Shown: in pieces, positions 15,736 to 53,352 of the stretch | Numbering within the stretch: the stretch's first letter is position 1 | Layout: each line of letters begins with the position of its first letter | Assembly: GCA_036337105.1 (NCBI GenBank) | Contig: JAYZEV010000005.1 | Coordinates: 3,084 to 67,083 of the forward strand | DNA: 64,000 bases | Origin: Pseudomonadota bacterium | Lineage (GTDB): Bacteria > Pseudomonadota > Alphaproteobacteria > Rhodobacterales > Rhodobacteraceae | Reading direction: 5' to 3' | Made by a program: the position numbers and the translations under genes | Notes under the pieces: generated by a model | The model's input: the letters and a program-made list of their open reading frames with translations, nothing else | The model's database searches: none | Told to the model about the DNA's origin: nothing

Positions 15736-15753
15736 AAAAATATCAATACGCCC

Positions 15754-15783
15754 TTGAAAAAAAATACGAAGTATTCATACTAT
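15754..15783 (+). promoter_or_regulatory. Candidate sigma70-type promoter for the tmRNA precursor
   Basis: TTGAAA (15754-15759), an 18-nt spacer, then TACTAT (15778-15783), just upstream of the GC-rich tmRNA segment. Confidence 0.35.
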
Positions 15784-15794
15784 TAGTGTTTTCT

Positions 15795-16095
15795 TAGTAA
15801 AACTATGGTGATAAACGCGCATGTAATAAACGGATCGGACCCGGGGGCGGTACCCGGCGGCTCCACCAGATAAATGAGGGGCCGAAATAGGATCGACGGA
15901 CGTCAAAAGATGTAAGCTTTCACTCGGCGGGATGGCCACCGATATCGGCGCAAAACGTATAATTGCAAATGACAATTATGCTCCGGTAGCGGTTGCTGCA
16001 TAAGCAGTAACTAAGCCGAAACTTAAGTCCAGTCCGATAGCTCGCACTGGCGGGGTCCGCAGGCACCTGGCAACAGAAGCCTGCACTCGATTTTG
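15795..16095 (+). ncRNA. ssrA: Circularly permuted (two-piece) tmRNA gene; ends approximate
   Basis: The acceptor piece ends ...CCGGG-GGCGGTA-CCCGG-CGGCTCC-ACCA (CCA at 15866-15868). Nine nt later the coding piece starts GGGGCCGAAATAGGATCGACGG (15878-). The acceptor stem GGGGCCG/CGGCTCC contains the G3:U70 alanine identity pair. The tag reading frame GCA AAT GAC AAT TAT GCT CCG GTA GCG GTT GCT GCA TAA (15965-16003) encodes ANDNYAPVAVAA*. Confidence 0.8.
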
Positions 16096-24824: not shown

Positions 24825-25100
24825 ATGCAGAAATTATTCATAATTTTGTTAATGAATGTTTGGGCTAATGGCGAACCAGAAATTGTTCAATATGGAACAA
24901 GCGTATTAGGTGATTACTATGATACAAGAGAAGAATGCGAAGCAAGGCTCATACAGCTCTCCGACGGAGAAGACCTTAGGAAAGAAAAAGGGATCAGGGG
25001 TATAGTCAGGACTGATACAGTTTTCAGAGCGTACGACCAAGCAGGTAGCGTTGTACAGCAATATTCCTGCTTAGAAGTAAACTTACGAAATTCAAATTAA
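24825..25100 (+). CDS. Small secreted hypothetical protein (91 aa)
   Basis: ATG at 24825 is preceded by AAGGA at 8-nt spacing. MQKLFIILLMNVWANG looks like a signal peptide. I recognise no family. Confidence 0.4.
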   Translation: MQKLFIILLMNVWANGEPEIVQYGTSVLGDYYDTREECEARLIQLSDGEDLRKEKGIRGIVRTDTVFRAYDQAGSVVQQYSCLEVNLRNSN

Positions 25101-25114
25101 TTGGCAGTTTTATA

Positions 25115-25561
25115 GTGCGAAAAATAGTGAGAAGAGCTTTTACAGGGTTAGAGTTGATTTTTTTATTTGCGGGGGTTTCGTTACCCTTGGTAACAATCGA
25201 CGAATTTTGGTTCTTTACTTCCAATTTTTCAATACTTTCTTTAATTTTTACACTTTTCCAGTCAGGAGAGAGCATACTGGGAGCATTGCTAGTTGTCTTT
25301 TGCGTTTTTATTCCATTTTATAAAAGCTTCAGTCGTATCATTAGTGAAGAAAGGTTCGAAAAAATACCCCTACATAAATTTGCAATGATAGATATGTTTC
25401 TTATAAGCTTCTTAATTTTTGGAAGCAAAATGTCATATTTTTATGAAGTTCGGCTTGAAGAAGGCTTCTATTTCCTATGTGCATATCTGCTCATGAGTTA
25501 CTTTAGCACAATATTAAATTACCTTCAAATCAAGCAAACAAGTTCAAAAAAAAACCTTTGA
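25115..25561 (+). CDS. Single-domain PqiA-like integral membrane protein
   Basis: Four predicted TM segments. FLFAGVSLPLVTI...SGESILGALLVVFCVFIPFYK...KFAMIDMFLISFLIF resembles the paraquat-inducible protein A repeat unit (compare the WSMLDVF motif). GTG start. Confidence 0.5.
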   Translation: MRKIVRRAFTGLELIFLFAGVSLPLVTIDEFWFFTSNFSILSLIFTLFQSGESILGALLVVFCVFIPFYKSFSRIISEERFEKIPLHKFAMIDMFLISFLIFGSKMSYFYEVRLEEGFYFLCAYLLMSYFSTILNYLQIKQTSSKKNL

Positions 25562-25780: not shown

Positions 25781-28315
25781 ATGAGTCTTGTAATAAATAC
25801 AAACATGAGCAGTTATATTTCTACACAACATGTAGATAGATATTCACGAAACACAGAAAACTCAATAGCAGCTATAGCGTCGGGCAAGAGAGTAAATAGC
25901 GCAAAAGATTTCCTTAATGGGGAGTCTTTGATAAATAGTTTTCGAGTGCAATCGACGGCGCTGAAAGTTAACTTGTCAAATATCAAGGATGGGCTAAGTC
26001 TTGCTGACAGGGCTGAGCAATCAATTTCCCAAGGGCAAGCTATATTACAAACTATGAGAGCACTGTCCGTGCAATCAGCAAATGGAATTTATAAAACTCG
26101 CGCTGGAGATTCAGTGTATTCTCCGGCCACTGCCACCTTTCAAGTAACAGGTGGGACGAACGGGACTTATGCCTCTGGCACCATTACCCTTACAGGCGCA
26201 ACTGAGGGGTCGCAAGCAAGTGGGTCTCTCACTTTTTCTGGCGCACACGCAGGAACCCAAGCAAGCGGAAGCTTCGCGATTTCAAATGCGACAGACGAGG
26301 CAAATGCGCGCGGTCAATTTACCGTTGGCGGGGGATCAGGAGCAAGTGGCGACAACATAAATACTATTACGGTAAACGGCGTTCAAATAAATGATAATGC
26401 CATTTCACATACCGGAAACAACAGGACAACAGCCGCAGCGATTGTTACTGAAATCAATGGATCAAGCCAGAGTGGAAACTTCACTGCATCCCGAAGTGGA
26501 AGCACGGTATATATTACGGCTGATACTGCGGGTACTGCACCAAATGGGCACGTAGTCGCTGTCTCAACGTCAGGCAGCGCATCTGCAAGTGGCATCAGCA
26601 ATATGGCGAACGGACTTGATAATACTCAGACGACCATTAGTAGTTTAACCGTGAATGGAACAAATGTCTTGTCGGGAGCACCATTGAGTGTGACCGGCGG
26701 CAACAATGCTATAGCCAGTGCCATAAGATCAGCATTCTCGAGTAGCGATTTTTCGGTTTCGGGATCTGGATCAACTGTAACTGTGACCTCAAATACGAAA
26801 AACTCAAGTCAAAATGGATATGCCGTGCGACTTAACAAGTCAAATGTCTCAGGACCCGCCGCTTCAAGTAACGACGGCTCTCTCAATTTATCTGGAGGGG
26901 TCACAGCCACAACGACCACAATTACTAATGTAACTGTTAATGGCGGCTCAAATCTTATCAATGGCTCCGGATCAGTCACGGTAACGGGTGATAACAGTGA
27001 TATCGCCACAGCAGTTGCTGCCCGGATATCGAGCGGTGATTACACAGCTTTTAGAAGTGGCTCGAGTGTTACATTCCTGTCAAACACTAAAGATCAAAGT
27101 CAAAATGGTTTCGCGGTTACCGGAAGCGTCTCACATGTTAGTGGGGATAATACTACGAGTCGCAGCGCGGGAACATTAAGCAGTGGTGATACTACTTCCA
27201 CCAATAGTGTTTCGGCCATCACCGTAAACGGAACCAATATTTTAGCGGGAACAGTAAATCACAACGGCGGCAACTCAGGGACAGCCAATGCGATAAGAGA
27301 CGCCATAAATGCTAATTCAGCAGCATCTGGTTTTCAAGCTTCTACATCGGGTGCACGAATAACAATTACCGCAACAACGAAAAATACAGGTCATAATGGC
27401 TACGTTATCGCCATGACAAAAGCAAACTCCGATACTTTTAATGAAATCGCAATGAGCTCACGCACCAACTTTTCCGGAGGGGATACACCTTCAAACAACG
27501 CTTTCACCGAGATTCGGGTAAAAGGTACCAAAATAAACAACAACAATATTCTGCATACTGGCAATAATGCGACTACTGCCGATGCAATTGCTAATGAAAT
27601 TAACAATTCGACGACAGACAGAAACTACACGGCCTCCTCCACAGGAAATTCTGTGACCATTTACTCAGACACTGTTCCACTTTGGGAAGACAATGACGAG
27701 TCAGTCACGGTAGCTGTTATTGGAACAGCAACTCACAACAACGACAATAGTAATGCAAAAATGGATGGCTCCGTCAGGATAGAGGGTGGAGCATTGACTT
27801 ATATCAACAATGAAATCACCAAACTAATTGTAGAATACGATAGCGGCATGAGTGAAACAACTTTCAACGATAAAAGCCTCTTTAATGGCACCAGTTATTC
27901 GTTTAGTTCGGGCGCGGCCGATGTATCAAGCTCAATAGAAACTCCGACTTTCACGCATTCATCCTTGAATACCGACACGTTGGACTTGACGGTAAACGAA
28001 GCGTCGACATCACTGACTTATATTGATACGCAATTGGAGAGCTTAAGGCAGGCTCGCTCGGAATATGCCGCCTTCGCTAATCGGCTTGAATTTGAAATCG
28101 ATTATATAGCCGATGCAATAGTAACAGCCACCAGAAGTGTTTCAATTATTCAAGACACTGATATGGCGGAGTACACAACGCAATTCGTAAGGAACAGTTT
28201 CTTAGAAGATGCAGCTCTCTCAGTGCATATGCAATCAAGACTACAAAAACGCGATGTCCTTAATTTATATTTTTCTCAGTCAAGGGTTGAAGGACAAGGA
28301 CGCTTCTATTTTTAA
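25781..28315 (+). CDS. Giant flagellin-family protein (844 aa) with a repeat-built central region
   Basis: The N-terminus MSLVINTNMSSY...ASGKRVNSAKD...GQAILQTMRALSVQSANG and C-terminus YAAFANRLEFEIDYI...RSVSIIQDTDMAEYTTQFVRNSFLEDAALSVHMQ align to the flagellin D0/D1 helices. The S/T/G/N-rich centre has no Cys. Confidence 0.85.
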   Translation: MSLVINTNMSSYISTQHVDRYSRNTENSIAAIASGKRVNSAKDFLNGESLINSFRVQSTALKVNLSNIKDGLSLADRAEQSISQGQAILQTMRALSVQSANGIYKTRAGDSVYSPATATFQVTGGTNGTYASGTITLTGATEGSQASGSLTFSGAHAGTQASGSFAISNATDEANARGQFTVGGGSGASGDNINTITVNGVQINDNAISHTGNNRTTAAAIVTEINGSSQSGNFTASRSGSTVYITADTAGTAPNGHVVAVSTSGSASASGISNMANGLDNTQTTISSLTVNGTNVLSGAPLSVTGGNNAIASAIRSAFSSSDFSVSGSGSTVTVTSNTKNSSQNGYAVRLNKSNVSGPAASSNDGSLNLSGGVTATTTTITNVTVNGGSNLINGSGSVTVTGDNSDIATAVAARISSGDYTAFRSGSSVTFLSNTKDQSQNGFAVTGSVSHVSGDNTTSRSAGTLSSGDTTSTNSVSAITVNGTNILAGTVNHNGGNSGTANAIRDAINANSAASGFQASTSGARITITATTKNTGHNGYVIAMTKANSDTFNEIAMSSRTNFSGGDTPSNNAFTEIRVKGTKINNNNILHTGNNATTADAIANEINNSTTDRNYTASSTGNSVTIYSDTVPLWEDNDESVTVAVIGTATHNNDNSNAKMDGSVRIEGGALTYINNEITKLIVEYDSGMSETTFNDKSLFNGTSYSFSSGAADVSSSIETPTFTHSSLNTDTLDLTVNEASTSLTYIDTQLESLRQARSEYAAFANRLEFEIDYIADAIVTATRSVSIIQDTDMAEYTTQFVRNSFLEDAALSVHMQSRLQKRDVLNLYFSQSRVEGQGRFYF
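26150..26329 (+). repeat. Four tandem 15-aa coding micro-repeats inside the flagellin-like gene
   Basis: GGTNGTYASGTITLT / GATEGSQASGSLTFS / GAHAGTQASGSFAIS / NATDEANARGQFTVG (aa 124-183). Confidence 0.7.
26366..27760 (+). repeat. Five tandem ~93-98-aa coding repeats (flagellin-IN-motif-like modules)
   Basis: Units start at aa 196 (ITVNGVQIN), 289 (LTVNGTNVL), 384 (VTVNGGSNL), 480 (ITVNGTNIL) and 578 (IRVKGTKIN). Each continues ...G(G/N)N..(I/T)A.A(I/V)...(I/F)N/S......(F/Y)(T/S/Q)AS.SG(S/A/N).(V/I)T(I/V/F)...T....NG(Y/F/H)(A/V)(V/I). The units are diverged at the DNA level. Confidence 0.75.
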
Positions 28316-28400: not shown

Positions 28401-28422
28401 CTTGGCCGCGTTTGTGGCCAAG
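28401..28422. terminator. Candidate bidirectional terminator hairpin between the convergent flagellin-like and methyltransferase genes
   Basis: CTTGGCC-gcgtttgt-GGCCAAG (7-bp stem, 8-nt loop) is followed by a T-rich stretch on the plus strand. It is the only obvious hairpin in the 170-bp convergent spacer. Confidence 0.35.
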
Positions 28423-28485: not shown

Positions 28486-29137
28486 TTAAAACTCTATTAT
28501 ACCACATTTATTCCCTACAACTCTATGTGTTAAGCCATTTTCATCCACAAAACTCATAAATGCATCATGAGCTCCATCGCACCATTGATTTTCCAGAACA
28601 TCATCCACTATGACAACCGCATTGGCTCCCAAAAAGGGTTTACAGCTGTTCAAAACGGCTTTGGTCGGTTTATACAAATCAACGTCCAAAAATAAAAAAT
28701 CGATTGTTCCTATTTTCGAGAAGTCAAACCTGGCTGCATCTATCATTACAGGCTTTACAAAATCAAACTCCTTGAAGTTTTTTCGGAACCTATCGTAATC
28801 ATTGTAACGAAATCCAAAAAAATCGCTTCGGTTCTTTCCTCTGTTTTGGACCTCGTAATTGACATCTGTTTCAGTGAACCCAGAAAAAGTGTCTATACAA
28901 AAGTATGTGCACAAAAGATTGCTACTTACAATGTACTGGCAAATGAATCTGGTGGTCATTCCGCGAGCAACTCCAACTTCAACTATGTTTATATGTTTTT
29001 TGCCTGCGGCGGCTCTATTTATACCGTTGACAAGCTCTACCAACTGGATCGGCTCGAGGTTGTAAGGATATGTGGCATCACCGAGTTTCGTGTAACGAAA
29101 GACTATTTTTTTAAGAAATTCTTTGATTTTTTTTCAT
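28486..29137 (-). CDS. TylF/MycF-family SAM-dependent O-methyltransferase; 5' end out of frame with its ATG (A8 tract)
   Basis: SAM motif I (VEVGVARGMTT) and the TylF-type LFLDVDLYKPT...VVIVDDV...CDGAHDAFMSF. The frame stays open and protein-like upstream of the track's TTG start (KKIKEFLKKIVFRYTKLGDATYPYNLEPIQL) up to a TGA at 29134-29136. An ATG at 29137-29135 is one base out of frame across A8 (29127-29134). Confidence 0.7.
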
Positions 29138-29539
29138 CTTCTTATTCAATATCTTTTTACAAATTATAATCTTTTTTTCTTTTTAACAAGAAGAAACCCG
29201 TAGAGTTTAATCTTAACAGATCTAAATGAAAAAAAACAAAAGATGTTTGAGTATATAAAAATCTATCCCCAACCATTAACTTGATTCTTAAGATGATGTA
29301 TTTCTTGTGTTGATTTAATTATCACCTACCATATTAACTATAATACCTGTAACTCTTATTTCGCATTCCACCAGGCCTAATTTATTTTGTTTCTGAAAGA
29401 GAAAAGCACAGCTCCGCTTTAAAAAAATTAAGCGTAAAATAGGTATTTGTGGCTGCAAGTTTTGTCGCAAAAAAAAGTAATGAAAATTGTCAGGTTAGTG
29501 ATAGGTTCTTATTTATTTGTCTTTGAGAGAGTGCTGAGT

Positions 29540-31249
29540 ATGGAAATCACGATCGATGCCGCTTTGCAAAGAGGTATCAAAGCACACAAGTCTGGGAATA
29601 TTCATGAAGCGCATAAGTTTTTTTCCGCCATTTTAAAAGTGCAACCTAATCATCCCAATGCAAATCACAACATGGGACTTCTTGCCATCAATATGGGAAA
29701 GGTTGTGGAAGCCCTTCCTTTTTTTAAAGCATCACTAAAAGCGGATGCAAGTGTTGAGAAGTTTTGGGTAAGCTACATCGACGCGCATCTGAGACTCAAC
29801 AGAATATCTGATGCTAAACACCTTTTCCAGATAGCTGAAGAAAAGGGGTTTAAAGGACACGTTTTGAGAAAGATGCGGCTAAAGCTTGATGAGACTGCAT
29901 TAAAGAGCGCGTCAAATTATTTGATTGCAGGAAATAATTTCTATAAAAGTGGCGACTTCGAACGCGCCATAGAAAAATATGAACAGGCTCTCAGTGCAAA
30001 CCCAGAATATGCAGAGGCCTACTTTAATAAAGCGAATGCCTTGATTGAGAATAATAACGATGCTTTCAACGCAATAAAAAATTATAAAAGTGCGCTTGAG
30101 ATAAACCCAAATTACATGAGAGCTTATAACAATCTGGGTAATATCTTTAAAGATATAGGAGATCAAGCTTCTGCAAAGAAACAGTATAAGACCGCCATCA
30201 AGATTAGCCATAAATATGCGACAGCCCATTTTAATCTTGCACAAGTGAAGAAATACAAAAGAATTGATAAACAGTTCTCAAGAATGAAAAGGCTCCACGA
30301 AAGCCTAAACACTAGTATTGAGGATAGATGTGTTTTAGGCTTTGCCTTATCCAAAGCATATGAAGATATGGGAAAACTAGACAAATCATTTTATTTATTG
30401 AAAGAAGCTAATGCTCTTCGCAAGCAAAGTTTAAGTTACGACTTCAAAAACGACAAAAAAATTTTTGAAAAAATTAAAGGTACAAACCAAAGCATTTTTA
30501 ACAAATCGTTACATTATAAAACTGCTGATCAAGCTGATTTAATACCGGTTTTTATTGTTGGTATGCCTCGGTCCGGTACAACCCTAATAGAGCAAATTAT
30601 TTCCTCACACTCTCAAATTACTGGAGGAGGCGAATTAAATTTTGTTGGCCTTTATGGTACGCAACTTGTTACCGGAAGTTCCAAACCTTCCCCGAAAACT
30701 TTGACTGACTTTAGAGAAAAATATCTATCTGCTCTAGGTAAATTTTCAAACGAAAAGCGTTTCGTAACTGATAAAATGCCTCATAATTTCTTGTTCCTTG
30801 GTCTAATCTGTGCCGCGTTACCAGAGGCAAAGATAGTTCATGTCACTCGAGAACCACGCGCAACCTGCTGGTCAAATTTTAAGCATTACTTTCCATCAAC
30901 AAATTTGGGCTACTGCTATGACCTGAATGATTTGGTCAAATATTATGAGATGTACCGAAATCTGATGGGATTTTGGCAAGAAAAATACGCAAGTAGGATT
31001 CATCACGTTAACTATGACGTTCTCACTAACAATCAAAACCTCGAAACCAAAAAACTAATTAAATACTTAGAAATAGGGTGGGAGAGGGACTGCCTTTATC
31101 CCCAGAAAAATCAAAGATTCGTGCGTTCTGCGTCGAGTCAGCAGGTAAGGGAAAAGATTTATAAGAATAGTTCAAAAAAATGGCTTGATTTTGAGGTTTT
31201 TTTAAATGGGGCCTTCGAGGGTTTAACAAATACGTCTTTGGGCGATTAG
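29540..31249 (+). CDS. TPR-repeat protein fused to a C-terminal sulfotransferase domain
   Basis: The N-terminal ~300 aa hold several TPR units (e.g. AHKSGNIHEAHKFFSAILKVQPNHPNANHNMGLL; GNNFYKSGDFERAIEKYEQALSANPEYAEAYFNKANAL). The C-terminal domain has the PAPS 5'-phosphosulfate-binding loop GMPRSGTTL (PRSGTT at 30566-30583). Start is taken as MEITIDAAL. Confidence 0.8.
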   Translation: MEITIDAALQRGIKAHKSGNIHEAHKFFSAILKVQPNHPNANHNMGLLAINMGKVVEALPFFKASLKADASVEKFWVSYIDAHLRLNRISDAKHLFQIAEEKGFKGHVLRKMRLKLDETALKSASNYLIAGNNFYKSGDFERAIEKYEQALSANPEYAEAYFNKANALIENNNDAFNAIKNYKSALEINPNYMRAYNNLGNIFKDIGDQASAKKQYKTAIKISHKYATAHFNLAQVKKYKRIDKQFSRMKRLHESLNTSIEDRCVLGFALSKAYEDMGKLDKSFYLLKEANALRKQSLSYDFKNDKKIFEKIKGTNQSIFNKSLHYKTADQADLIPVFIVGMPRSGTTLIEQIISSHSQITGGGELNFVGLYGTQLVTGSSKPSPKTLTDFREKYLSALGKFSNEKRFVTDKMPHNFLFLGLICAALPEAKIVHVTREPRATCWSNFKHYFPSTNLGYCYDLNDLVKYYEMYRNLMGFWQEKYASRIHHVNYDVLTNNQNLETKKLIKYLEIGWERDCLYPQKNQRFVRSASSQQVREKIYKNSSKKWLDFEVFLNGAFEGLTNTSLGD

Positions 31250-31382: not shown

Positions 31383-32687
31383 TCATACAAACCGATTAAC
31401 GGCATTCTCGAGGCGTTCTTGCCCGCCAGACCGTGGTTCGGGAGAAATGTCATCGGCGATTATCCTATCCGAAATCGATGATAGCGTCTCTTCCGCTAGC
31501 ATCTTCTTTGCGGATGGAGTGTCCCAACCAGCATACCGTTTTGATCGTTCATGTTCGATCAAGCCGTCTTCAAGTAGAGCGGCAGCGGATTTAAGCGCCC
31601 TTGCGCAAACATCCATTGCTCCTACATGCGAAAGGATTAGATCCGCTGGGTCCAAAGATTGGCGGCGAAGTTTTGCGTCAAAGTTTGTCCCTCCAGAGGT
31701 GAAGCCTCCGCCCCTTAGAATCTCATAGTAAGCCATCATGACTTCAGGCACATTGTTGGGAAATTGGTCTGTATCCCAACCAGACTGGTAGTCGTTTCTA
31801 TTCATATCAATCGAACCAAATATTCCCATTGAATTAGCTAGAGCGATTTCATGTTCGAAACTATGACCCGCAAGGATTGCATGACCCGCTTCAATATTTA
31901 CCCTAACCTCGTCCTCAAGGCCAAAACGCCGAAGAAACCCATAGACGGTCGCAACATCGTAGTCATATTGATGCTTTGAGGGTTCCTGCGGTTTGGGTTC
32001 TACCAGAATCTGCCCTTTGAAGCCGATCTTATGCTTGTAGTCGACGACCATTTGCAGGAAACGACCAGCCTGTTGCACCTCTCGTGTTAGATCGGTATTC
32101 AGCAGCGTTTCATAACCTTCTCGGCCGCCCCACAAGACATAGTTTTCTCCACCAAGCTTCACTGTTGCATCCATACAGGATTTCACTGTGGCAGCAGAAT
32201 AGGCAAAGACATCTGGGTCGGGGTTTGTCGCAGCGCCAGACATGAACCGCCGATGCGTAAATAAGTTGGCCGTACCCCAAAGAAGCTTGGTGCCGCTAGA
32301 GTCCATTTTTTCGGCGATATAGTCGGTGATTTTTTCAAGATTACTCAGACTTTCGGCAAAGCTTCTGCCTTCGGGACGAACGTCGAGGTCGTGAAAACAG
32401 AAGTAGGGTACTCCCAAAATCTCGAACATCTCAAACGCAACATCTGCCTTACGACGCGCATGTTCCATTGTGTCCCCGAACCACGGTCGTTCGAAAGTCT
32501 GACCACCAAACGGATCGCCTCCAGGCCATGCAAAGCTGTGCCAATAGGCGACCGCGAATCTTAGGTGGTCCTCCATTCGTTTACCCATAACCAGTTCGTT
32601 TGCGTCATAGTGTCGAAACGCGAAGTCGTTTTTGGTCTCTGTGCCCTCAAAAGTGCACTTTGGAATCCCATGGAAAAAATCAGTCAT
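31383..32687 (-). CDS. xylA: Xylose isomerase
   Basis: 434 aa with [23 protein letters not shown] and [17 protein letters not shown] motifs. It is clearly more GC-rich than the flanks. Confidence 0.95.
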
Positions 32688-34123
32688 TTAAGCTCCTTAA
32701 TCGCGCCCTGCGCGTCTTTGAATTGTTCGTGCTTGGCGCTGTAGGCGCTCGTGAGTGATGGATCTGGTTCGATTGTGCAGGATATTTTTGGTCGACCTGC
32801 AACCTCAACGTCGCCGGCGTCAGCTGCCATCATCGCCAAGCGCGCCGCGCCAAATGCACCACCAAAATCCCCATCAATGGGTAAATCGATAGGAATGTTT
32901 AGGGCGGTTGCAAGGATCTGTAGCCAATAATCTGAGTTACTGCCACCTCCAACGGCCAACAAGCTGTCAAATTTCGTGCCCGTTGAAGCCAGCGCGTCAC
33001 GGCAATCGCAAAAAGCAAATGCTACTCCTTCCAAAACTGCCTTGCTCACCGCCTTAAGATCCGAGGCGTGATCCAGCCCAACAAACGCACCGCGTATTTT
33101 TGCGTCGTTTAGCGGTGTCCGTTCACCGCCGATATAGGGAAGAAAAAGTGCGCGCCCGGGTGCCGACACCGGTCCCAAATCGGCCGTTAACTCGGATGGC
33201 AATTTCCCAGCTAGACCGGAAAACCAATTGAGCGCATCCGTTGCTGCCAAAATAACACCCATTTGGTGCCAGGTGTTGGGGAGCGCATGGCAAAAGGTGT
33301 GAACGGCCGTTTCTGGCGCCGGGGAATATGTATCCGTCGCTGCGAACAGAACACCGGAAGTCCCAAGTGACAGAAACGCTTGCCCATCGGTAACCGCGCC
33401 AACGCCAATACCGGAGGCAGCGTTATCGCCGCCACCGCCAGCCACGACGACCGAGGGGCTAAAGCCCCAGCGTGACGAGATATCCTGTCGTAAATTCCCA
33501 CCAGGCTCTGAGCCCTCGACTATTTCGGGCATGTGACCTCGATCGAGATCGGAAAGGGCCAAGAGATCATCTGACCAATCACGCTTGGCCGTGTTAAGCC
33601 AACTTGTTCCGGCGCTGTCAGATGGATCACTAATGTATTCACCCGTTAGCCAAAGACGCAAATAATCTTTGGGTAACAGGACTTTGTGAATTTGCGAAAA
33701 CAAGTCCGCTTCGTGATTTTGTATCCACTTCAGCTTGGGCGCCGTGAACCCAGGAAAGACGATGTTGCCACTTATTGCGCGCCAATCCTCTACCGCGTCC
33801 ATTTCAGAGGCTTCACTGCTGCTACGGGTGTCATTCCACAAAATGCTTGGTCTAAGAACGCGGTTTTGCGCATCAATGACCGTGGCGCCGTGCATCTGAC
33901 CGGATAGTCCAATTCCACGAACTGTACCTAGAGCGCTTCGGGAACTCAACTCGTCAAATACGTTCTCAGCTGCCGAAATCCAGTCAGCAGGATCTTGTTC
34001 AGACCAGCCATCGTGAGGACGTGAAACCTCTAAACCTGACGAAGCGGAATCCACAACTGCTTGATCATCGTTGATCAAAACACCTTTTAGTCCCGACGTC
34101 CCAAGATCCAGGCCTAGAAACAT
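32684..34123 (-). CDS. xylB: Xylulokinase
   Basis: FGGY kinase N-terminus ([16 protein letters not shown]) and C-terminal domain ([17 protein letters not shown]). There is a 4-nt overlap with xylA. Confidence 0.9.
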
Positions 34124-34272
34124 TTCACCTGTCCAGACTCCCTAAGTACACTGATTTGCTCAAGTGCTTCCGAATGCACCCATCCCAACTCAAAATTGTA
34201 CCCACTCGTCATTCTTACTGTTACTTTCAATGCAGGATTCTATGGTCAGAATTATCGAAATATCAGTATATT

Positions 34273-34358
34273 TGGTGGAGGGGATAGGATTCGAACCTAT
34301 GTAGGGTTTCCCCGACGGAGTTACAGTCCGTTGCATTTGACCGCTCTGCCACCCCTCC
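34273..34358 (-). tRNA. tRNA-Tyr (anticodon GTA), CCA encoded
   Basis: The reverse complement is GGAGGGG-TG-GCAGAGCGGTCAAATGC-A-ACGGA-CTGTAAC-TCCGT-CGGGGAAACCCTAC-ATAGG-TTCGAAT-CCTAT-CCCCTCC-ACCA. It folds as a cloverleaf with a long variable arm, 86 nt. Confidence 0.9.
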
Positions 34359-35771: not shown

Positions 35772-37598
35772 ATGAAATTACCAGACCGTTTTGCGCTTAA
35801 GCTTTCCAAGGAAAACATCCATTTACTCGTTCAAAGTCCCGACGGGTGTCAAAGAATTATTGGGACAAGTGACCCAAACAAACCGACACTTACAAACGAC
35901 TTAAAACGGCTCTTGGACCAACTCAAAGCTCTTACTGATGACTATCCTGTAGTGGACGTTTTGCTGCCAAATGATCTTGTTTTGTGCCAGAGGGTCAAGG
36001 TTGATGAACCGTTTAGCCAATCTAGCGCAACCGATTTTATTGGGGAAAAGTGTGACCTAGAGAAACACGAAGTTATGGTGGCAATAAGTACAGTCAGCAA
36101 TGAAAATAATCAAACAATAGCAGCAGTGACTTCCAAAACTATAACGGAAACAAGAATATTTCTAAAGAATGCAGGATTTTATACCCAACACTTCATGGCG
36201 GCAAGCCCAGTAAGTGGATTTAAAAAGGCACCAATTTTCGCCTCCGATAAGGTTCCTTGGAATCGTAACACGATAAAGAAAACTGCCACAGCTACAGCTT
36301 GGACTGTTGCCGCCGGATTTTTAATTGCATTATTTCAAATTTTTTCAAATACTTACCTAGTAACACCCAGTGCAAAAATACTGGATAATCCTGAGATAGC
36401 TCAATTTGAATACCAAACACCATCAAAATATTCACCCTCAAATCTAAACAAAAAACCTTTATACCACATCGAGGCACCAGAAATCACTCAGCTCAAACCA
36501 TTGAGTAAAGTCACAACATCTAATCCAAAGAAACATTCAAGTCTTAACTTTCTAACTGACCAATCAGTGACAACAAGTTCTAAGCCAGTGGAAGTTAAAG
36601 GTCGATATTTGGAGCGGTCCGCTAGTATAGAAACTGAGGCTCGTCTTGGCTACGTAGAGGCTAAGTACAACGAAAGCTATGCCAGAAAAATGTCTCATAT
36701 AACCTCGCCAGCAGGAAATAGTATTTTGTACCTTTACTTAACTCCAAAATTAAAGATGCAGCTGTTAACGACGTCGATAGGCAGTTTGAGTCCTCTACCA
36801 GAAGAGAGAGTTTCTAGATCAGAGGTAGTGTCACTAAAAGGTGAATTCTCGCGAATACAAACCCCATCTGTCAAAAATAACCACTTGACGGATTTCGTGC
36901 CTTCTTCTGAGCGACCGATGCATAGCAATTTAGATTGGTTAATGAGAGATAGTACTTTAACCAAAAATCAAAATTTAGACTTAACACCATTAGCACGTTT
37001 CTTTCACAATGACTATCGGTTAGAAAGCCAATTGAAGGATAAACCGATATTGAAAGTAAAGGTTTTTGAGTACTCCCAAACCATTGAAACAGGGCAATAC
37101 TATGAAACCATAGCAGCAATCGATCCCTACGAGCTGACCGAGAAGGAGCGTTTGCTTTCTAAAAAGTACAAACCGAATGAAAGGCCGAAAATTATTGCAG
37201 CCATAAAACTATTAGCCGAACCAACTCTCTCATCTGGCGCTATAACCTATAGCGAATTCCCGATGGTCCGTCCATTAAACGTAATCGAACTTGCTAGGTT
37301 GGAGCCTAATTCGATCAGTATCTCAGCAAAAGCCACCAAACGACCTACATTCCCTCGTCGAGCCTCAGTTGAAAGTAACGCGACAATCAATAATATTCTA
37401 GAACTTAATAGGACTAACCTTATCGGAGTATTTGGAACAGAATTAAATGCAGTAGCACTTATAAGACTCTCTTCAGGTAGGGTAATTAAAGTTAAGGTAG
37501 GGGATAGATTCCAAGGATGGCAGGTACTTACCATACATAAAGATAAAATTGACCTTGCAAACGGAGCAAAATTAGAAACCTTACGACTTCCTGGTTGA
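35772..37598 (+). CDS. Hypothetical single-pass membrane protein (608 aa)
   Basis: A long ORF after an AT-rich 245-bp spacer. It has a ~165-aa N-terminal domain, one TM (about aa 172-192, TATAWTVAAGFLIALFQIF), a long S/T/P/K/N-rich region and a compact beta-rich C-terminal ~70 aa. Confidence 0.5.
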   Translation: MKLPDRFALKLSKENIHLLVQSPDGCQRIIGTSDPNKPTLTNDLKRLLDQLKALTDDYPVVDVLLPNDLVLCQRVKVDEPFSQSSATDFIGEKCDLEKHEVMVAISTVSNENNQTIAAVTSKTITETRIFLKNAGFYTQHFMAASPVSGFKKAPIFASDKVPWNRNTIKKTATATAWTVAAGFLIALFQIFSNTYLVTPSAKILDNPEIAQFEYQTPSKYSPSNLNKKPLYHIEAPEITQLKPLSKVTTSNPKKHSSLNFLTDQSVTTSSKPVEVKGRYLERSASIETEARLGYVEAKYNESYARKMSHITSPAGNSILYLYLTPKLKMQLLTTSIGSLSPLPEERVSRSEVVSLKGEFSRIQTPSVKNNHLTDFVPSSERPMHSNLDWLMRDSTLTKNQNLDLTPLARFFHNDYRLESQLKDKPILKVKVFEYSQTIETGQYYETIAAIDPYELTEKERLLSKKYKPNERPKIIAAIKLLAEPTLSSGAITYSEFPMVRPLNVIELARLEPNSISISAKATKRPTFPRRASVESNATINNILELNRTNLIGVFGTELNAVALIRLSSGRVIKVKVGDRFQGWQVLTIHKDKIDLANGAKLETLRLPG

Positions 37599-44523: not shown

Positions 44524-46419
44524 TCAGGCGTGCTTTGGGTACCCAATTGAATGCAGGACCTCCTTTATTTCATTCAATATTTCTGGATCGTCTATTGTCG
44601 CGGGAGCCTTAAAATTTTCACCATTCGCAATTTTTGCTATTGTAGACCTCAATATTTTGCCTGACCTTGTTTTGGGCAAACGCTCTACAACCGCTACCAA
44701 TTTGAATGCCGCAACCGGCCCAATTTTCTCTCGTACAAGAACAATTACTTCCTTTGCAATAGTCTCATGAGCTTTATTAACTCCAGAATTCAAACAGACT
44801 AACCCAAACGGAAGTTGCCCCTTTAAATCATCCAAAACCCCTACTACAGCGCACTCTGCAACATCTGGGTGGCTAGCCAAAACTTCTTCCATTGCCCCTG
44901 TGGAAAGCCGATGTCCCGCCACGTTAATTACATCGTCTGTCCGAGCCATAATATACACATAACCGTCCTGATCGATCAATCCAGCATCTCCAGTCTGATA
45001 ATACCCAGGGAAGGTACTCATATATGCTGATAGAAATCGATCATCCGCATTCCACAATGTACTTAGCGCTCCTGGTGGAAGCGGCAATTTCACTGCAATA
45101 GAACCAAGCTCGCCAGGCTCAAGCGTCTCGCCATTTTCTCCTAATATACAAATCTCATAACCAGGCATTGGCACAGACGGGGATCCAATCTTAACTGGCA
45201 AGTTTTCTATTCCAATTGGATTTCCTACCATTCCAAACCCTGTCTCAGTTTGCCACCAATGATCAATGACCGGTACCTGCAGTTTATCTTGAGCCCATAC
45301 TACTGTATCGGGATCGGCTCGTTCGCCAGCGAGAAATAAGGAATTTAAACTAGAAGTATCATATGCCTCTATATATTCCCCATCTGGATCAACTCTTTTG
45401 ATTGCTCTGAAAGCTGTTGGTGCCGTGAAAAGACAACTTACTTTATGCTCCTCGATTATCCTCCAAAAAGTACCAGCGTCTGGCGTATCGACAGGCTTAC
45501 CCTCAAACAATACCGTCGTATTTGAATTCAATAAAGGGGCATAACAAATATATGAATGACCAACTACCCAACCAACATCGGAAGCCGCCCAAAAAACTTC
45601 ATCAGGCTCAACACCATAAAGATTTTTCATTGTCCATATTAAGCTTACCATATGACCACCAGTTGGCCTTACCACTCCCTTGGGTTGCCCAGTGGTTCCA
45701 GAGGTGTACAGTATATACAAAGGATGCGAAGCTGGAACGGGAATACATTCGCAGAGCCCTGCATCCTTTTGGAACTCCTCCCATTCATGGTCTCTACCCT
45801 TTATTAAATCGGCTACAGCATTTTCTCTTTGCAATATAACGCAAAAATCGGGGTTATGCTGAGCAATTTCTATTGCTTCGTCCAAAAGAGGCTTATAGGC
45901 GACAATCTTGGAAGGTTCTATCCCGCAGGATCCAGCGATGATAGCTCTAGGCCTACAGTCATCTATTCGAACCGCTAATTCATTTGCAGCGAACCCACCA
46001 AATACCACCGAATGTATAGCCCCAATCCTTGCGCAAGCAAGCATAGCAACCAGTGCCTCAGGAATCATTGGCATATAAATGATTACGCGATCACCTTTTG
46101 AGATACCCCTTGTAAGTAGTGCAGCCCCAAGTTTTGAAACCTTTTCCAGAAGAGTTGAGAAAGAAATATTGTACTTTTGTCCCGTCACTGGACTATCGTA
46201 TATTATTGCCGTCTTATTGCCTAAGCCTTTATTTACATGCCTATCCAAAGCGTTATGACAAGTGTTCGCCACTCCATCGTCAAACCAACTAAAAAAGGGA
46301 GGGTTAGCATCGTTTAAAGCTTTTGTAGGGAATGTTTCCCAATCCACAGTTTTCGCGGCAGCCATCCAAAAATCATCAGGAGAGTTCTTCCACGAATTAT
46401 AAATTTGTGCATAGTTCAT
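44524..46419 (-). CDS. prpE: Propionate--CoA ligase / acetyl-CoA synthetase family
   Basis: 631 aa with AMP-binding signature (YTSGTTGQPKGV), the YQTGD motif and C-terminal PKTRSGKILR. The PrpE-like N-terminus and the methylmalonyl-pathway neighbours favour propionate as substrate. Confidence 0.75.
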   Translation of the reverse strand: MNYAQIYNSWKNSPDDFWMAAAKTVDWETFPTKALNDANPPFFSWFDDGVANTCHNALDRHVNKGLGNKTAIIYDSPVTGQKYNISFSTLLEKVSKLGAALLTRGISKGDRVIIYMPMIPEALVAMLACARIGAIHSVVFGGFAANELAVRIDDCRPRAIIAGSCGIEPSKIVAYKPLLDEAIEIAQHNPDFCVILQRENAVADLIKGRDHEWEEFQKDAGLCECIPVPASHPLYILYTSGTTGQPKGVVRPTGGHMVSLIWTMKNLYGVEPDEVFWAASDVGWVVGHSYICYAPLLNSNTTVLFEGKPVDTPDAGTFWRIIEEHKVSCLFTAPTAFRAIKRVDPDGEYIEAYDTSSLNSLFLAGERADPDTVVWAQDKLQVPVIDHWWQTETGFGMVGNPIGIENLPVKIGSPSVPMPGYEICILGENGETLEPGELGSIAVKLPLPPGALSTLWNADDRFLSAYMSTFPGYYQTGDAGLIDQDGYVYIMARTDDVINVAGHRLSTGAMEEVLASHPDVAECAVVGVLDDLKGQLPFGLVCLNSGVNKAHETIAKEVIVLVREKIGPVAAFKLVAVVERLPKTRSGKILRSTIAKIANGENFKAPATIDDPEILNEIKEVLHSIGYPKHA

Positions 46420-46465
46420 TGCAGACTTCCTTTTTCTGTAGGCGTCTTAAATCGTTAATTTAACG

Positions 46466-48757: not shown

Positions 48758-48763
48758 TGTAGT

Positions 48764-50920
48764 TCATTTATTTAAAACCTTTTTTGTTCTCTTTCCTCGC
48801 TCGATTAGACTTAGTACTTCTCTTGCCGCCTCAGGAATATTTGTGCCAGGGCCGAATATGGCACTCACCCCGGCTTTATATAACAAATTGTGATCTCTTG
48901 ACGGTATGACACCTCCACAAATTACTAATATTTCTGTGGCATTTAACTTTGCTAACTCTTGTATTAGTTTGGGAGCTAAAGTTCTATGTCCTGCCGCTTG
49001 ACTTGAGAGACCGATTACATGAACATCATTGTCTACCGCATCTCTTGCAGCTTCAGTCGGAGTCTGGAAAAGTGGTCCTACATCGACATCAAAACCAACA
49101 TCAGCAAATGCGGTAGCAATTACTTTAGCGCCTCTGTCATGACCATCTTGCCCCATTTTTACTACCAAAAGCCTTGGTCGTCTTCCTTCACGTTCAGCAA
49201 AGTCTCCAATATCTTTTTGAACAGCTTTAAATGTCTCGTCACTTCCATTCTCTGAACCATACACCCCAGACAAAACTGTGACCTTCGCGCGGTGTCGACC
49301 AAAAATCTGTTCCATCGCAAACGATATTTCTCCGACAGTTGCTCTCTTCTTGGCGGCTTCTATAGCAGCCTCTAAAAGATTTCCGCTTTCATCTTGAGCG
49401 ACTATCTTTAGTCGCTCAAGAGCTTCTTCACAATCTTTTTGGTTTCTACTATTTTTTAGATCAGCGAGTCTTTGAATTTGCTTTTCCCTAACTTTGTTAT
49501 CATCTACATCCAATATATCAACAGGCTCCTCAGTTTCGGGCTGATATTTATTAACCCCAACGATAACTTCTTCGCCCTTATCCACAGCTGCCTGACGCAG
49601 AGCAGCAGACTCCTCTATCCTCATTTTTGGCATTCCCGACTGTACTGCTTTAGTCATACCACCCAAACTATCAATTTCTAATATTAAATCCCACGCCTTG
49701 TTCACTAGTTCATTTGTAAGACTTTCCACATAGTAACTTCCTGCTAGCGGATCAACGACTTTCGTGACACCGGTTTCTTCTTGTAGAATGATCTGCGTAT
49801 TGCGAGCAATACGCGCCGAAAATTCAGTCGGCAGACCCATTGCTTCATCAAGTGCATTCGTGTGAAGACTCTGAGTGCCACCTAGAACAGCTGACATTGC
49901 CTCATATGCTGTTCTCACTATATTATTGTAAGGGTCTTGCTGCTGCAGGCTAACACCCGAAGTTTGACAGTGAGTTCTTAAAATCGATGAAGTTGCATTT
50001 TTGGGTGCAAAATCTTTCATTATTCTTGCCCAAAGAATCCTAGCCGCTCGTAGCTTCGCAACCTCCATAAAGAAGTTCATCCCAATGGCAAAAAAGAACG
50101 AAAGACGACCAGCGAATTTATCCACATCTAATCCAGCCGATATGGCAGACTTTACATATTCCTTACCGTCTGAGAGGGTAAATGCCAGTTCTTGAACCAA
50201 GTTGGCGCCGGCCTCTTGCATATGATAACCAGATATAGATATTGAATTGAATTTTGGCATCTCAGAGCTGGTAAAGCCAATTATATCAGAAACAATTTTC
50301 ATCGAGGGTTCAGGAGGGTAGATGTAGGTATTTCTCACCATGAACTCCTTAAGTATATCGTTCTGGATCGTTCCTGTTAGTTCTCTTCGATTAACACCTT
50401 GTTCTTCCCCAGTAACTATAAAGTTTGCAAGAATTGGTATGACTGCACCGTTCATGGTCATTGACACCGACATGCCGTCTAGAGGAATACCATTAAAAAG
50501 AACTTTCATATCCTCAACACTGTCAATTGCCACGCCGGCCTTTCCAACATCGCCCTCAACCCTAGGGTGATCACTATCATAGCCTCGATGTGTTGCCAAA
50601 TCAAAGGCAACGGAAATTCCCTTCTGTCCAGAGGCAAGGTTTCTCTTATAGAATCTATTACTCTCTTCCGCAGTAGAAAATCCGGCATACTGTCTGATAG
50701 TCCACTTACGACCGGGATACATAGTAGCCTTGGGCCCCCGGACGTAGGGGGAGAAGCCAGGAAGCGACTCCGTATGATTGAGCCCTCTTAAGTCGTGTTT
50801 GGTGTAAAGCGGCTTTACCTCTATCCCCTCCGGAGTCCTCCAAATCAAGTCATCAATCGGCCTAGTTTTCAGCTCTTTGCGCGCTAAATTTTCCCACTTC
50901 TTTAACTCGTCATCACCCAT
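48764..50920 (-). CDS. Methylmalonyl-CoA mutase, single large polypeptide with a B12-binding domain
   Basis: A catalytic TIM-barrel region ([13 protein letters not shown]; [15 protein letters not shown]) and a C-terminal cobalamin-binding DxHxxG motif ([11 protein letters not shown]). Confidence 0.95.
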
Positions 50921-50940
50921 AATTTAACCTTGCTTTAATT

Positions 50941-52938: not shown

Positions 52939-52994
52939 ATTTATATTTTTATTTTCATAGTCCCGTAAAGCAGCCTAGTGCAACTAGTCAATGA

Positions 52995-53342: not shown

Positions 53343-53352
53343 CTACGAGCGC

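What the first reader, a model, noticed from the sequence alone, without database searches (positions are those of the whole stretch)
29540..31249. TPR-sulfotransferase fusion beside the flagellin-like gene: candidate flagellin-directed sulfation enzyme
The protein combines about 300 aa of TPR repeats with a C-terminal PAPS-type sulfotransferase domain (GMPRSGTTL 5'-PSB loop). In Caulobacter crescentus the flagellin glycosyltransferase FlmG is described as modular. It has an N-terminal TPR domain that recognises flagellin and a C-terminal catalytic domain. By analogy, this TPR domain could dock onto the S/T/Y-rich repeat flagellin 1.2 kb away. The sulfotransferase domain could then sulfate it or its glycans. 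I am not aware of a described flagellin sulfation system, so this would be new. The evidence is only gene proximity and architecture. TPR-sulfotransferase fusions also occur in unrelated contexts.
Basis: inference. Interest (0 to 1): 0.75.

Follow-up and report, generated by a model that had tools for sequence, protein, structure and literature searches.

The report
TPR-sulfotransferase next to giant flagellin
A cytoplasmic enzyme that joins a protein-docking TPR array to a tyrosine-sulfotransferase-like domain lies beside a giant flagellin-like gene; related enzymes sit inside true flagellar gene clusters in four other bacteria, so flagellin sulfation is plausible but unproven, and here the adjacency could also come from a tRNA-linked insertion hot spot.

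Summary
Window 29540-31249 (+) encodes 569 aa: about 320 aa of TPR helices, then a PAPS-type sulfotransferase (ST) with the GMPRSGTTL loop. An 844-aa protein with flagellin N and C domains ends 1.2 kb upstream.

- For: in 4 of 79 genomic loci, TPR-STs lie directly beside 684-846-aa flagellins inside verified flagellar clusters. Two of these loci also hold TPR-methyltransferases. One orthologous locus carries a TPR-methyltransferase with the same N-terminal head in the same slot. The ST + TylF-methyltransferase pairing recurs.
- Against: 155 of 159 TPR-ST loci show no flagellin. No informative orthologous flagellin-like locus has a TPR-ST. The slot lies on the 3' side of a conserved tRNA-Tyr and elsewhere holds unrelated cargo. 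No flagellar genes are nearby.

New points: the ST domain is closest to protein-tyrosine sulfotransferases, with their catalytic residues conserved. Its 110-aa N-terminal head is shared with enzymes carrying methyltransferase, 2OG-oxygenase, GT41 and PRMT-like domains. This suggests a modular protein-modifying toolkit.

Verdict: a new variant of FlmG-like modular enzymes. The flagellin-like protein as target has a probability of about 0.45.

The parts
29540..31249 (+). TPR-sulfotransferase gene, 569 aa, no signal peptide or membrane segment at the N-terminus
   Evidence: ORF; Pfam Sulfotransfer_3 plus TPR families; 100 % identical to NCBI 'MAG: sulfotransferase [Pseudomonadota bacterium]'; AF2 model pLDDT 87.8
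29540..29872 (+). Conserved N-terminal head module (aa 1-111; three TPR-like helix pairs)
   Evidence: About 60-70 % conserved across the family. The same head precedes other catalytic domains in other proteins: methyltransferases, 2OG oxygenase, GT41, PRMT-like
29873..30502 (+). Further TPR repeats and helical linker (aa 112-321)
   Evidence: Pfam TPR hits at aa 113-260; helices H107-321 in the AF2 model. The number of repeats varies between homologues
30545..31174 (+). PAPS-type sulfotransferase domain (aa 336-545). Key residues: 5'-PSB loop GMPRSGTTL (aa 341-349, R344), E365, K412, and the 3'-PB pair R437/S445
   Evidence: Pfam; residue-by-residue alignment to human TPST1; family profile against PDB gives seven best hits that are all TPSTs, E 8e-15 to 5e-12; these residues are invariant or nearly so
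28486..29137 (-). TylF/Methyltransf_24-type SAM methyltransferase, transcribed divergently from the TPR-ST gene. The reading frame is broken in a T8 run (29127-29134) just after the ATG
   Evidence: Pfam; 72 % identical to the 220-aa methyltransferase beside the flagellin-like gene in L161; sequence read; homologous to the C-terminal domains of head-TPR-TylF fusions
29138..29539 (.). AT-rich intergenic region shared by the divergent methyltransferase and TPR-ST genes
   Evidence: Sequence; no strong consensus promoter found
25781..28315 (+). Giant flagellin-like gene (844 aa), the candidate substrate. Layout: flagellin D0/D1 helices, a segment of 15-aa beta repeats, then five ~96-aa tandem domains
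   Evidence: Pfam; NCBIfam partial flagellin hits; AF2 model; Foldseek best hits are flagellar filaments; 18 full-length homologues
28401..28422 (+). Terminator-like hairpin after the flagellin-like gene
   Evidence: 9 pairs, 6 G-C; weak T tail
24825..25561 (+). Two small genes that precede the flagellin-like gene in nearly all relatives: a ~90-aa secreted-looking protein and a PqiA-like two-TM protein
31383..34358 (-). Other cargo of the variable slot (xylA, xylB; G+C 52 % against ~40 % around) and the conserved tRNA-Tyr at its right edge (34273-34358)

Best explanation
The gene encodes a cytoplasmic, modular, PAPS-dependent sulfotransferase.

Domain roles:
- The N-terminal TPR array starts with a conserved 110-aa head, followed by a variable number of repeats. 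It most likely docks a protein substrate, as in FlmG, Maf-1, OGT and SPINDLY.
- The C-terminal domain has a protein-tyrosine-sulfotransferase-like core with the complete catalytic set. It would transfer sulfate from PAPS to a hydroxyl of the docked protein before that protein is exported.

Partners and substrate:
- With the divergently transcribed TylF-type methyltransferase it forms a recurrent sulfotransferase + methyltransferase pair.
- In this genome the most likely substrate is the adjacent 844-aa flagellin-like protein.

Shown here: the architecture, the conserved catalytic residues, the closest structural relatives, the recurrence of TPR-ST and TPR-methyltransferase genes beside giant flagellins in four true flagellar loci, and the recurrence of the ST + TylF pairing.

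Inferred: that the TPR binds the flagellin-like protein, that the acceptor is a protein side chain (Tyr, or Ser/Thr) rather than a glycan, and that PAPS is available.
For: Enzyme class:
- Pfam Sulfotransfer_3, E 2.4e-37.
- R344, E365, K412 and R437/S445 align with the 5'-PSB Arg, the Glu base, the Lys and the 3'-PB Arg/Ser of TPST1. They are invariant or nearly so in the family.
- A profile of the domain against PDB ranks seven TPST entries first (E 8e-15 to 5e-12). CurM ST follows at 1e-8 and the cytosolic SULTs at 4e-7 or weaker.

Protein-directed logic:
- The same head module is fused in other proteins to GT41 (OGT-like), PRMT-like, 2OG-Fe(II) oxygenase, class I SAM-methyltransferase and TylF-like domains.
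- Foldseek matches of the TPR part are SPINDLY and OGT.

Flagellin link:
- L023, L031, L061 and L075 hold a TPR-ST beside 684-846-aa flagellins. FliD, FlgK, FlgI, FliF and FliS in these loci were verified by Pfam.
- My estimate for direct adjacency by chance in 79 loci is about 0.1-0.2 loci (inference).
- The four ST domains are not a clade: pairwise identity is 35-51 %. The association is therefore spread over the family.
- L167 has a head-TPR-methyltransferase in the same slot beside an orthologous flagellin-like gene.
- Methyltransferases occupy the slot in 5 of the 8 configurations that show at least one gene of the slot: TylF twice, FkbM twice, TPR-MT once.
- The TylF methyltransferase lies beside the flagellin-like gene in a second species, L161.
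- TPR-TylF fusions lie beside TPR-ST genes in L081, L144 and L088/L089.

Precedent: TPR domains bind flagellin in FlmG and Maf-1.
Against: - 75 of 79 genomic loci and 80 of 80 metagenomic TPR-ST loci show no flagellin within reach. Many contigs are short, but about 48 genomic loci hold 15 kb or more.
- No neighbour family is conserved.
- Orthologous flagellin-like loci L162, L163, L164-166, L168-172 and L174 have no TPR-ST.
- The slot lies on the 3' side of a tRNA-Tyr that is conserved in all relatives. Elsewhere it holds xylAB, zwf-pgl-eda-pgi or EamA, so adjacency may reflect an insertion hot spot.
- The two genes are separated by an opposite-strand gene and a terminator-like hairpin.
- The flagellin-like gene is an orphan in a housekeeping frame with no flagellar genes. 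It has an atypical C-terminal extension, and whether the organism is flagellated is unknown.
- Tyr makes up only 1.5 % of the central region. The repeat position that holds Tyr in two repeats holds Phe in three (read from the sequence).
- TPR-less or head-less relatives occur in a Polaribacter MAG and other lineages.
Confidence: 0.45

Rival explanations
1. The enzyme is a TPR-guided protein sulfotransferase, but its substrate is some other protein, for example another exported surface protein or a cytoplasmic protein. It lies near the flagellin-like gene only because the 3' side of tRNA-Tyr is a hot spot where accessory genes accumulate.
For: - tRNA-Tyr is at the right edge of the slot in the window and in all 7 relatives tested.
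- The cargo differs between relatives and includes unrelated sugar-catabolism cassettes. Here it includes xylAB at 52 % G+C.
- Most family members have no flagellin nearby and no conserved neighbour.
- Family members cluster with each other (GT41, MT25, TylF, 2OG fusions in 18 loci) rather than with a fixed partner.
Against: - Four independent flagellar loci have a TPR-ST directly beside giant flagellins.
- A second head-TPR enzyme sits in the same slot in L167.
- The slot is enriched for methyltransferases.
- No integrase or mobile-element gene is seen in the slot.
Confidence: 0.35
2. The enzyme sulfates a carbohydrate: either a glycan already attached to the flagellin-like protein or a cell-envelope polysaccharide. 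The TylF-type methyltransferase would then O-methylate the same sugar. The TPR array would only hold the enzyme in a biosynthetic complex.
For: - TylF and FkbM family methyltransferases are typically sugar O-methyltransferases (family knowledge). They recur in the slot.
- The central region of the flagellin-like protein is 30 % Ser+Thr, typical of O-glycosylated flagellins.
- Sulfated glycans are known on Halobacterium archaellins (PMC11980604).
Against: - No glycosyltransferase or sugar-nucleotide gene appears in the slot or among the window ORFs scanned.
- The catalytic domain is about six orders of magnitude closer to protein-tyrosine sulfotransferases than to any other solved sulfotransferase.
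- The head module's other fusion partners are mostly protein-modifying domain types.
Confidence: 0.15
3. The gene is a decaying remnant without function.
For: The neighbouring methyltransferase has a frameshift in a homopolymer. The window protein is the shortest of its family, with fewer TPRs.
Against: The ORF is intact, all invariant family residues are present, and the model is confident.
Confidence: 0.03

Closest known systems
FlmG (Caulobacter crescentus flagellin glycosyltransferase)
   Same: Cytoplasmic two-module enzyme. [quoted passage not shown]
   Different: The catalytic domain here is a PAPS sulfotransferase, not a GT-B glycosyltransferase. Sequence relatedness of the TPR parts was not tested. 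Binding to flagellin is not shown here.
Maf-1 (Shewanella oneidensis flagellin pseudaminyl transferase)
   Same: [quoted passage not shown] The gene lies in a flagellin modification locus.
   Different: In Maf-1 the TPR is C-terminal and the catalytic domain is MAF_flag10, with a sugar donor.
Protein-tyrosine sulfotransferases TPST1/TPST2 (animals) and RaxST (Xanthomonas oryzae)
   Same: Closest solved relatives of the catalytic domain. The 5'-PSB Arg, the Glu base, the Lys and the 3'-PB Arg/Ser are conserved. RaxST is a bacterial cytoplasmic enzyme that sulfates a secreted peptide (PMC4646787).
   Different: TPSTs and RaxST have no TPR array. TPSTs are Golgi-lumenal. An acidic Tyr context is not evident in the window's flagellin-like protein.
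OGT / SPINDLY (TPR + GT41 protein glycosyltransferases)
   Same: A TPR superhelix delivers protein substrates to a C-terminal transferase. They are the best structural matches of the TPR part. GT41 domains are also found fused to the same head module.
   Different: Different donor and catalytic fold; eukaryotic nucleocytoplasmic enzymes.
Sulfotransferases acting on the N-glycan of Halobacterium salinarum archaellins and S-layer
   Same: The only sulfated motility filament found in the literature searched (PMC11980604, PMC11239922).
   Different: Archaeal; the sulfate goes on N-linked sugars; archaellins are unrelated to flagellins; no TPR module is reported.

Membership tests
PAPS-dependent sulfotransferases (Pfam Sulfotransfer_3 / Sulfotransfer_1) | Profile match above the curated cut-off | tested here: met
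   PF13469, 129.8 bits against 27; PF00685, 47 bits against 22
PAPS-dependent sulfotransferases (Pfam Sulfotransfer_3 / Sulfotransfer_1) | 5'-phosphosulfate-binding loop (PxxSGTT-type P-loop) | tested here: met
   GMPRSGTTL at aa 341-349, invariant in 20 and in 14 aligned homologues
PAPS-dependent sulfotransferases (Pfam Sulfotransfer_3 / Sulfotransfer_1) | 3'-phosphate-binding Arg/Ser motif | tested here: met
   R437...S445 aligns with RDGRASVHS of TPST1. R437 is invariant and S445 nearly so
PAPS-dependent sulfotransferases (Pfam Sulfotransfer_3 / Sulfotransfer_1) | Sulfotransfer from PAPS to an acceptor | not testable with these tools
   Needs an enzyme assay
Protein-tyrosine sulfotransferases (TPST/RaxST type) | Closest sequence relatives among solved structures, with the catalytic Glu and Lys conserved | tested here: met
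   Seven best PDB hits are TPST1/2. E365 and K412 align with the TPST catalytic Glu and Lys. The numbering of the TPST residues is from my own knowledge
Protein-tyrosine sulfotransferases (TPST/RaxST type) | The acceptor is a Tyr, usually in an acidic context | tested here: inconclusive
   The window's flagellin-like protein has few Tyr (1.5 % centrally). Only SGDYTAF and IVEYDSG have an acidic neighbour. The L061 flagellins beside a double-ST protein carry repeated D-Y-A-x-G-D
FlmG-like modular flagellin-modifying enzymes | TPR module plus a separate catalytic module in one cytoplasmic polypeptide | tested here: met
FlmG-like modular flagellin-modifying enzymes | GT-B glycosyltransferase catalytic domain | tested here: not met
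   The catalytic domain is a sulfotransferase. It is therefore not a FlmG family member, only an architectural analogue
FlmG-like modular flagellin-modifying enzymes | The TPR domain binds flagellin | not testable with these tools
   Needs two-hybrid or pull-down assays, or a complex prediction. No multimer tool was available
FlmG-like modular flagellin-modifying enzymes | Genetic linkage to flagellin or flagellar genes | tested here: inconclusive
   4 of 79 genomic loci are directly linked, as is the window. There were 0 of 80 metagenomic loci, and none of the informative orthologous flagellin-like loci has a TPR-ST. One has a TPR-methyltransferase
Flagellin (for the neighbouring 844-aa protein) | Flagellin_N and Flagellin_C helical domains and a flagellin fold | tested here: met
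   Pfam above cut-offs. AF2 model with ND1 and CD1/CD0 helices. Foldseek best hit is the Geovibrio flagellar filament 9au6, E 8e-10
Flagellin (for the neighbouring 844-aa protein) | Encoded with, or in a genome with, a flagellar apparatus; forms a filament | tested here: inconclusive
   No flagellar gene among the window ORFs scanned or in any syntenic frame.

The most novel reading that the evidence does not exclude
Marine Alpha- and Gammaproteobacteria carry a large toolkit of cytoplasmic enzymes. In each, one conserved 110-aa TPR head is combined with an interchangeable protein-modifying domain: TPST-like sulfotransferase, several methyltransferases, 2OG oxygenase, GT41, or PRMT-like. The toolkit's common job would be to decorate giant flagellins and flagellin-like surface proteins before export. 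Direct O-sulfation of a bacterial flagellin would be a modification not described so far.
Probability: 0.25. Interest if true: 0.85.

Novelty: new variant of a known kind. Interest (0 to 1): 0.6.

Why it matters
Flagellin modification is known as glycosylation and lysine methylation. A sulfotransferase recruited by a TPR adaptor would add a new chemistry to a well-studied surface structure. It could affect filament charge, phage and grazer recognition, and immune detection.

Independently of the flagellin question, two findings stand out. One conserved TPR head is combined with at least seven catalytic domain types. The sulfotransferase is of the protein-tyrosine type, of which RaxST was the only characterised bacterial example found in the literature searched. 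Together these point to an unexplored and very abundant protein-modification system in ocean bacteria. It can be tested directly by co-expression and mass spectrometry.

Tried and rejected
- The window protein itself is not on record in the contig index, so the rest of its 170-kb contig could not be read.
- The metagenome scan for close relatives returned nothing closer than about 50 % identity, mostly on 2-6 kb contigs, and none held a flagellin.
- The closest relative (P0002, 61 %) lies on a 2.8-kb contig with only 293 bp upstream. That stretch does not align with the window's intergenic region.
- A jackhmmer search with the central repeats of the flagellin-like protein against all ORFs of the TPR-ST loci found nothing. 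There is therefore no shared 'substrate domain' between the window's flagellin-like protein and the giant flagellins of L023, L031, L061 and L075.
- Self-BLAST did not detect the internal repeats. They were read by eye and from the AF2 model.
- Foldseek with the full-length TPR-ST model was dominated by TPR proteins and said nothing about the sulfotransferase domain. The profile-against-PDB search replaced it.
- I considered whether the flagellin-linked sulfotransferases form a dedicated subfamily. This was rejected: pairwise identity is 35-51 % and their nearest neighbours are unlinked.
- I considered that the fast divergence of the TPR-ST against xylA (61 % against 94 % in L001) marks diversifying selection. 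This was rejected because xylAB has foreign G+C and may have been transferred recently.
- Literature searches for flagellin sulfation, for TPR-sulfotransferases in roseobacters, and for the flagellation of Planktomarina (which has a head-TPR-ST, P0055) gave no usable answer.
Full report
**The observation**

The window comes from an alphaproteobacterium. It carries a two-piece alpha tmRNA and has about 41 % G+C.

At 29540-31249 (+) lies an intact 569-aa ORF.
- Pfam finds Sulfotransfer_3 at aa 336-515 (E 2.4e-37), Sulfotransfer_1, and a dozen TPR families over aa 17-260.
- An AlphaFold2 model built on 20 homologues (pLDDT 87.8) shows 17 helices from aa 5 to 321, followed by an alpha/beta domain.
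- GMPRSGTTL sits at aa 341-349.
- The N-terminus has no hydrophobic stretch, so the protein is read as cytoplasmic.

The 844-aa ORF at 25781-28315 passes both flagellin Pfam models. Its model has the long ND1 and CD1/CD0 helices of flagellins. Its best Foldseek hits are flagellar filaments, led by the 792-aa Geovibrio flagellin.

Between the two genes, on the other strand, lies a TylF/Methyltransf_24 methyltransferase. The exception is 'Y-rich': the central region has 15.8 % S, 14.5 % T, 12.1 % N and 10.6 % G, but only 1.5 % Y.

**What the enzyme is**

The protein is identical to an NCBI MAG protein annotated only as 'sulfotransferase'. The family is very large: 5502 clusters at E<=1e-10 among just 8000 scored candidates, mostly marine.

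By sequence, the catalytic domain is closest to human protein-tyrosine sulfotransferase 1 (E 1e-5). A profile of 14 family members ranks seven TPST entries first (E 8e-15 to 5e-12). CurM ST follows at 1e-8 and the cytosolic SULTs at 4e-7 or weaker.

In the pairwise alignment, R344, E365, K412 and R437/S445 fall on the 5'-PSB Arg, the Glu, the Lys and the 3'-PB Arg/Ser of TPST1. All are invariant or nearly invariant in the family. In TPST2 these are R78, E99, K158 and R183/S191; that numbering is from my own knowledge. The domain is thus a complete sulfotransferase of the protein-tyrosine type. In the literature searched, RaxST of Xanthomonas was the only characterised bacterial example of this type.

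**A shared N-terminal head**

The first ~110 aa form a module far better conserved than ordinary TPRs. Its consensus reads MELTLDQALQKGIEAHKAG..QEAD.YTAILKAQPKHPDANHNMGVLAV..GK..ALPFFKTALEANP...QFWLSYIDALIKL.

An exhaustive search with this module alone found 4607 representatives at E<=1e-10. Of the best 149, only 22 carry the sulfotransferase domain. The others carry the same head at their N-terminus. They end in the following domains:
- a conserved domain without a Pfam match (52 representatives), which in other members precedes a class I SAM methyltransferase (6 representatives);
- a 2OG-Fe(II) oxygenase (16);
- a GT41 OGT-like glycosyltransferase (11);
- an unknown domain (11);
- a TylF-like methyltransferase (4);
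- a divergent Sulfotransfer_3 (4);
- a PRMT-like methyltransferase (3).

Several of these are protein-modifying domain types. The TPR part resembles those of SPINDLY and OGT. I infer that the head plus TPR array is a protein-docking adaptor with exchangeable chemistry.

**Linkage test from the sulfotransferase side**

A scan of one genome per GTDB species returned 79 loci. About 48 of them hold 15 kb or more.

An iterated flagellin search found flagellins in only four:
- L023, a K189A-clade gammaproteobacterium;
- L031, alpha proteobacterium SCGC AAA015-N04;
- L061, Porticoccaceae;
- L075, a gammaproteobacterium.

In all four, the TPR-ST lies within 125-600 bp of a 684-846-aa flagellin, or one gene away in L075. 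Each locus is a true flagellar cluster: FliD, FlgK, FlgL-like, FlgI, FliF and FliS were verified by Pfam.
- L031 and L075 also carry TPR-methyltransferase fusions next to the TPR-ST.
- The L061 protein has two sulfotransferase domains.

By my estimate, direct adjacency by chance would give 0.1-0.2 loci in 79 (inference). The association is therefore real for part of the family.

The four sulfotransferase domains do not form a clade. Pairwise identity is 35-51 %, and their nearest relatives are unlinked genes.

On the other side of the ledger:
- The remaining 75 genomic loci and all 80 metagenomic loci show no flagellin.
- The most frequent unrelated neighbour family occurs in only 8 loci and is an ABC transporter.
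- What does recur near TPR-ST genes are other members of the TPR-enzyme toolkit: GT41 in 7 loci, Methyltransf_25 fusions in 6, TylF fusions in 4, and 2OG in 1.

**Linkage test from the flagellin side**

The flagellin-like protein has only about 18 full-length homologues (41-91 % identity, 830-1165 aa). One is named 'flagellin [Rhodobacteraceae/Paracoccaceae bacterium]'.

Nearly all lie in one syntenic housekeeping frame:
fumC - dsbD - indolepyruvate oxidoreductase - LysR - hydrolase - 89-aa ORF - PqiA-like - flagellin-like - (159/163-aa ORF) - variable slot - tRNA-Tyr - SpoU methylase - 618-aa ORF - ... - mgtE - upp.

No flagellar gene appears in any frame. The conserved small neighbours match no flagellar family.

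The slot content varies:
- window: TylF methyltransferase, TPR-ST and xylAB;
- L161: TylF methyltransferase, then the contig ends;
- L167: an 818-aa protein with the same head and TPRs but a class I SAM-methyltransferase domain in place of the sulfotransferase;
- L162 and L174: an FkbM methyltransferase, with EamA as well in L162;
- L164-166: EamA alone;
- L163: small ORFs;
- L168-172: zwf-pgl-eda-pgi.

tRNA-Tyr sits at the right edge of the slot in every relative tested, with its 3' end facing the slot. That is a classic insertion site.

So no informative orthologue has a TPR-ST, and one has a head-TPR methyltransferase. Methyltransferases are present in 5 of the 8 configurations that show at least one gene of the slot. 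Unrelated metabolic cassettes use the same slot.

**The methyltransferase partner**

The window's TylF gene is 72 % identical to the one beside the flagellin-like gene in L161. It is homologous to the C-terminal domains of head-TPR-TylF fusions (25-27 % over ~160 aa, E down to 9e-10). Such fusions lie directly beside TPR-ST genes in L081, L144 and L088/L089.

The sulfotransferase + TylF-methyltransferase pair is thus a recurrent module. Here it is transcribed divergently from a 400-bp AT-rich spacer.

The window's copy has a one-base frameshift in a T8 run right after its ATG.

**Weighing the evidence**

The enzyme class and the modular, probably protein-directed nature are well supported.

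That some family members act on giant flagellins is well supported by position, and by the FlmG and Maf-1 precedents.

That this particular enzyme acts on the adjacent flagellin-like protein is plausible:
- it lies close by;
- a second head-TPR enzyme sits in the orthologous slot;
- the slot is enriched for methyltransferases.

The inference is weakened by four things:
- the tRNA-linked hot spot;
- the lack of a TPR-ST in other orthologous loci;
- separate transcription;
- the orphan, atypical status of the flagellin-like gene.

I put it at 0.45, against 0.35 for an unrelated protein substrate. The acceptor residue is open. The TPST-like core suggests Tyr, but the candidate substrate is poor in Tyr.

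No paper on sulfation of a bacterial flagellin was found. Sulfated N-glycans on Halobacterium archaellins are the nearest known case.

Noticed in passing
window 29127-29137 (- strand gene 28486-29137): The TylF-type methyltransferase starts with an ATG (29137-29135) followed by an A8 run on the coding strand. With A7 the frame would match the 220-aa orthologue of L161 from its first residues. As it stands, the longest ORF starts 32 codons later at a TTG. This is either a homopolymer sequencing error or a slippage-prone tract like those in flagellin-modification genes of other bacteria.
   Followed up: partly
window 29540-29872; proteins P0141-P0289: The 110-aa N-terminal head of the TPR-ST is shared, at roughly 50-70 % identity by eye, with proteins ending in class I SAM methyltransferase, TylF-like methyltransferase, PRMT-like methyltransferase, 2OG-Fe(II) oxygenase, GT41, a divergent sulfotransferase and two unknown domains. 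4607 representatives match at E<=1e-10 (TPR repeats inflate this count).
   Followed up: partly
window 25781-28315 against L161 10001-12511: The flagellin-like protein is 91 % identical between the window and L161. The flanking housekeeping proteins are less conserved: fumC 85 %, oxidoreductase 80 %, dsbD 79 %, hydrolase 68 %. That is unusual for a protein with a surface-exposed hypervariable region. It suggests strong constraint or recent exchange.
   Followed up: no
window 31383-34358: xylA-xylB has 52 % G+C in a ~40 % genome. It lies between the TPR-ST gene and a tRNA-Tyr that marks the right edge of a variable slot in all relatives. xylA is 94 % identical on a Tara contig (L001) whose TPR-ST is only 61 % identical.
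   Followed up: partly
window 24825-25561: A ~90-aa ORF with a signal-like N-terminus and a PqiA-like two-TM protein precede the flagellin-like gene in nearly all relatives (not L175). A 159-163-aa ORF without any family match follows it in most relatives but is absent here and in L161.
   Followed up: partly
window 26129-27781 (aa 117-667 of the flagellin-like protein): The model shows a run of 15-aa beta repeats (aa 117-198) followed by five ~96-aa beta-beta-alpha-beta domains. Each carries an ITVNG...A.AI..IN motif reminiscent of the 'flagellin hook IN' motif.
   Followed up: partly
L061 3367-11287: Two 684-700-aa flagellins carry four repeats containing D-Y-A-[TA]-G-D, a Tyr in an acidic context. 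They lie directly upstream of a 1089-aa TPR protein with two sulfotransferase domains. This is the best candidate pair for testing tyrosine sulfation of a flagellin.
   Followed up: no
window 35772-37598: A 608-aa protein without any Pfam match always follows the SpoU methylase in the syntenic frame of all relatives (613-618 aa).
   Followed up: no
window 15750-16087 and 57876-58034: A two-piece alphaproteobacterial tmRNA (278.5 bits) and a 6S RNA (52.3 bits). These are ordinary housekeeping RNAs.
   Followed up: no
window 44524-54885: A propionate/methylmalonyl-CoA cluster on the - strand: acyl-CoA synthetase, malic enzyme-PTA fusion, methylmalonyl-CoA mutase, and the biotin carboxylase and carboxyltransferase subunits. 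It is ordinary metabolism, unrelated to the finding.
   Followed up: no
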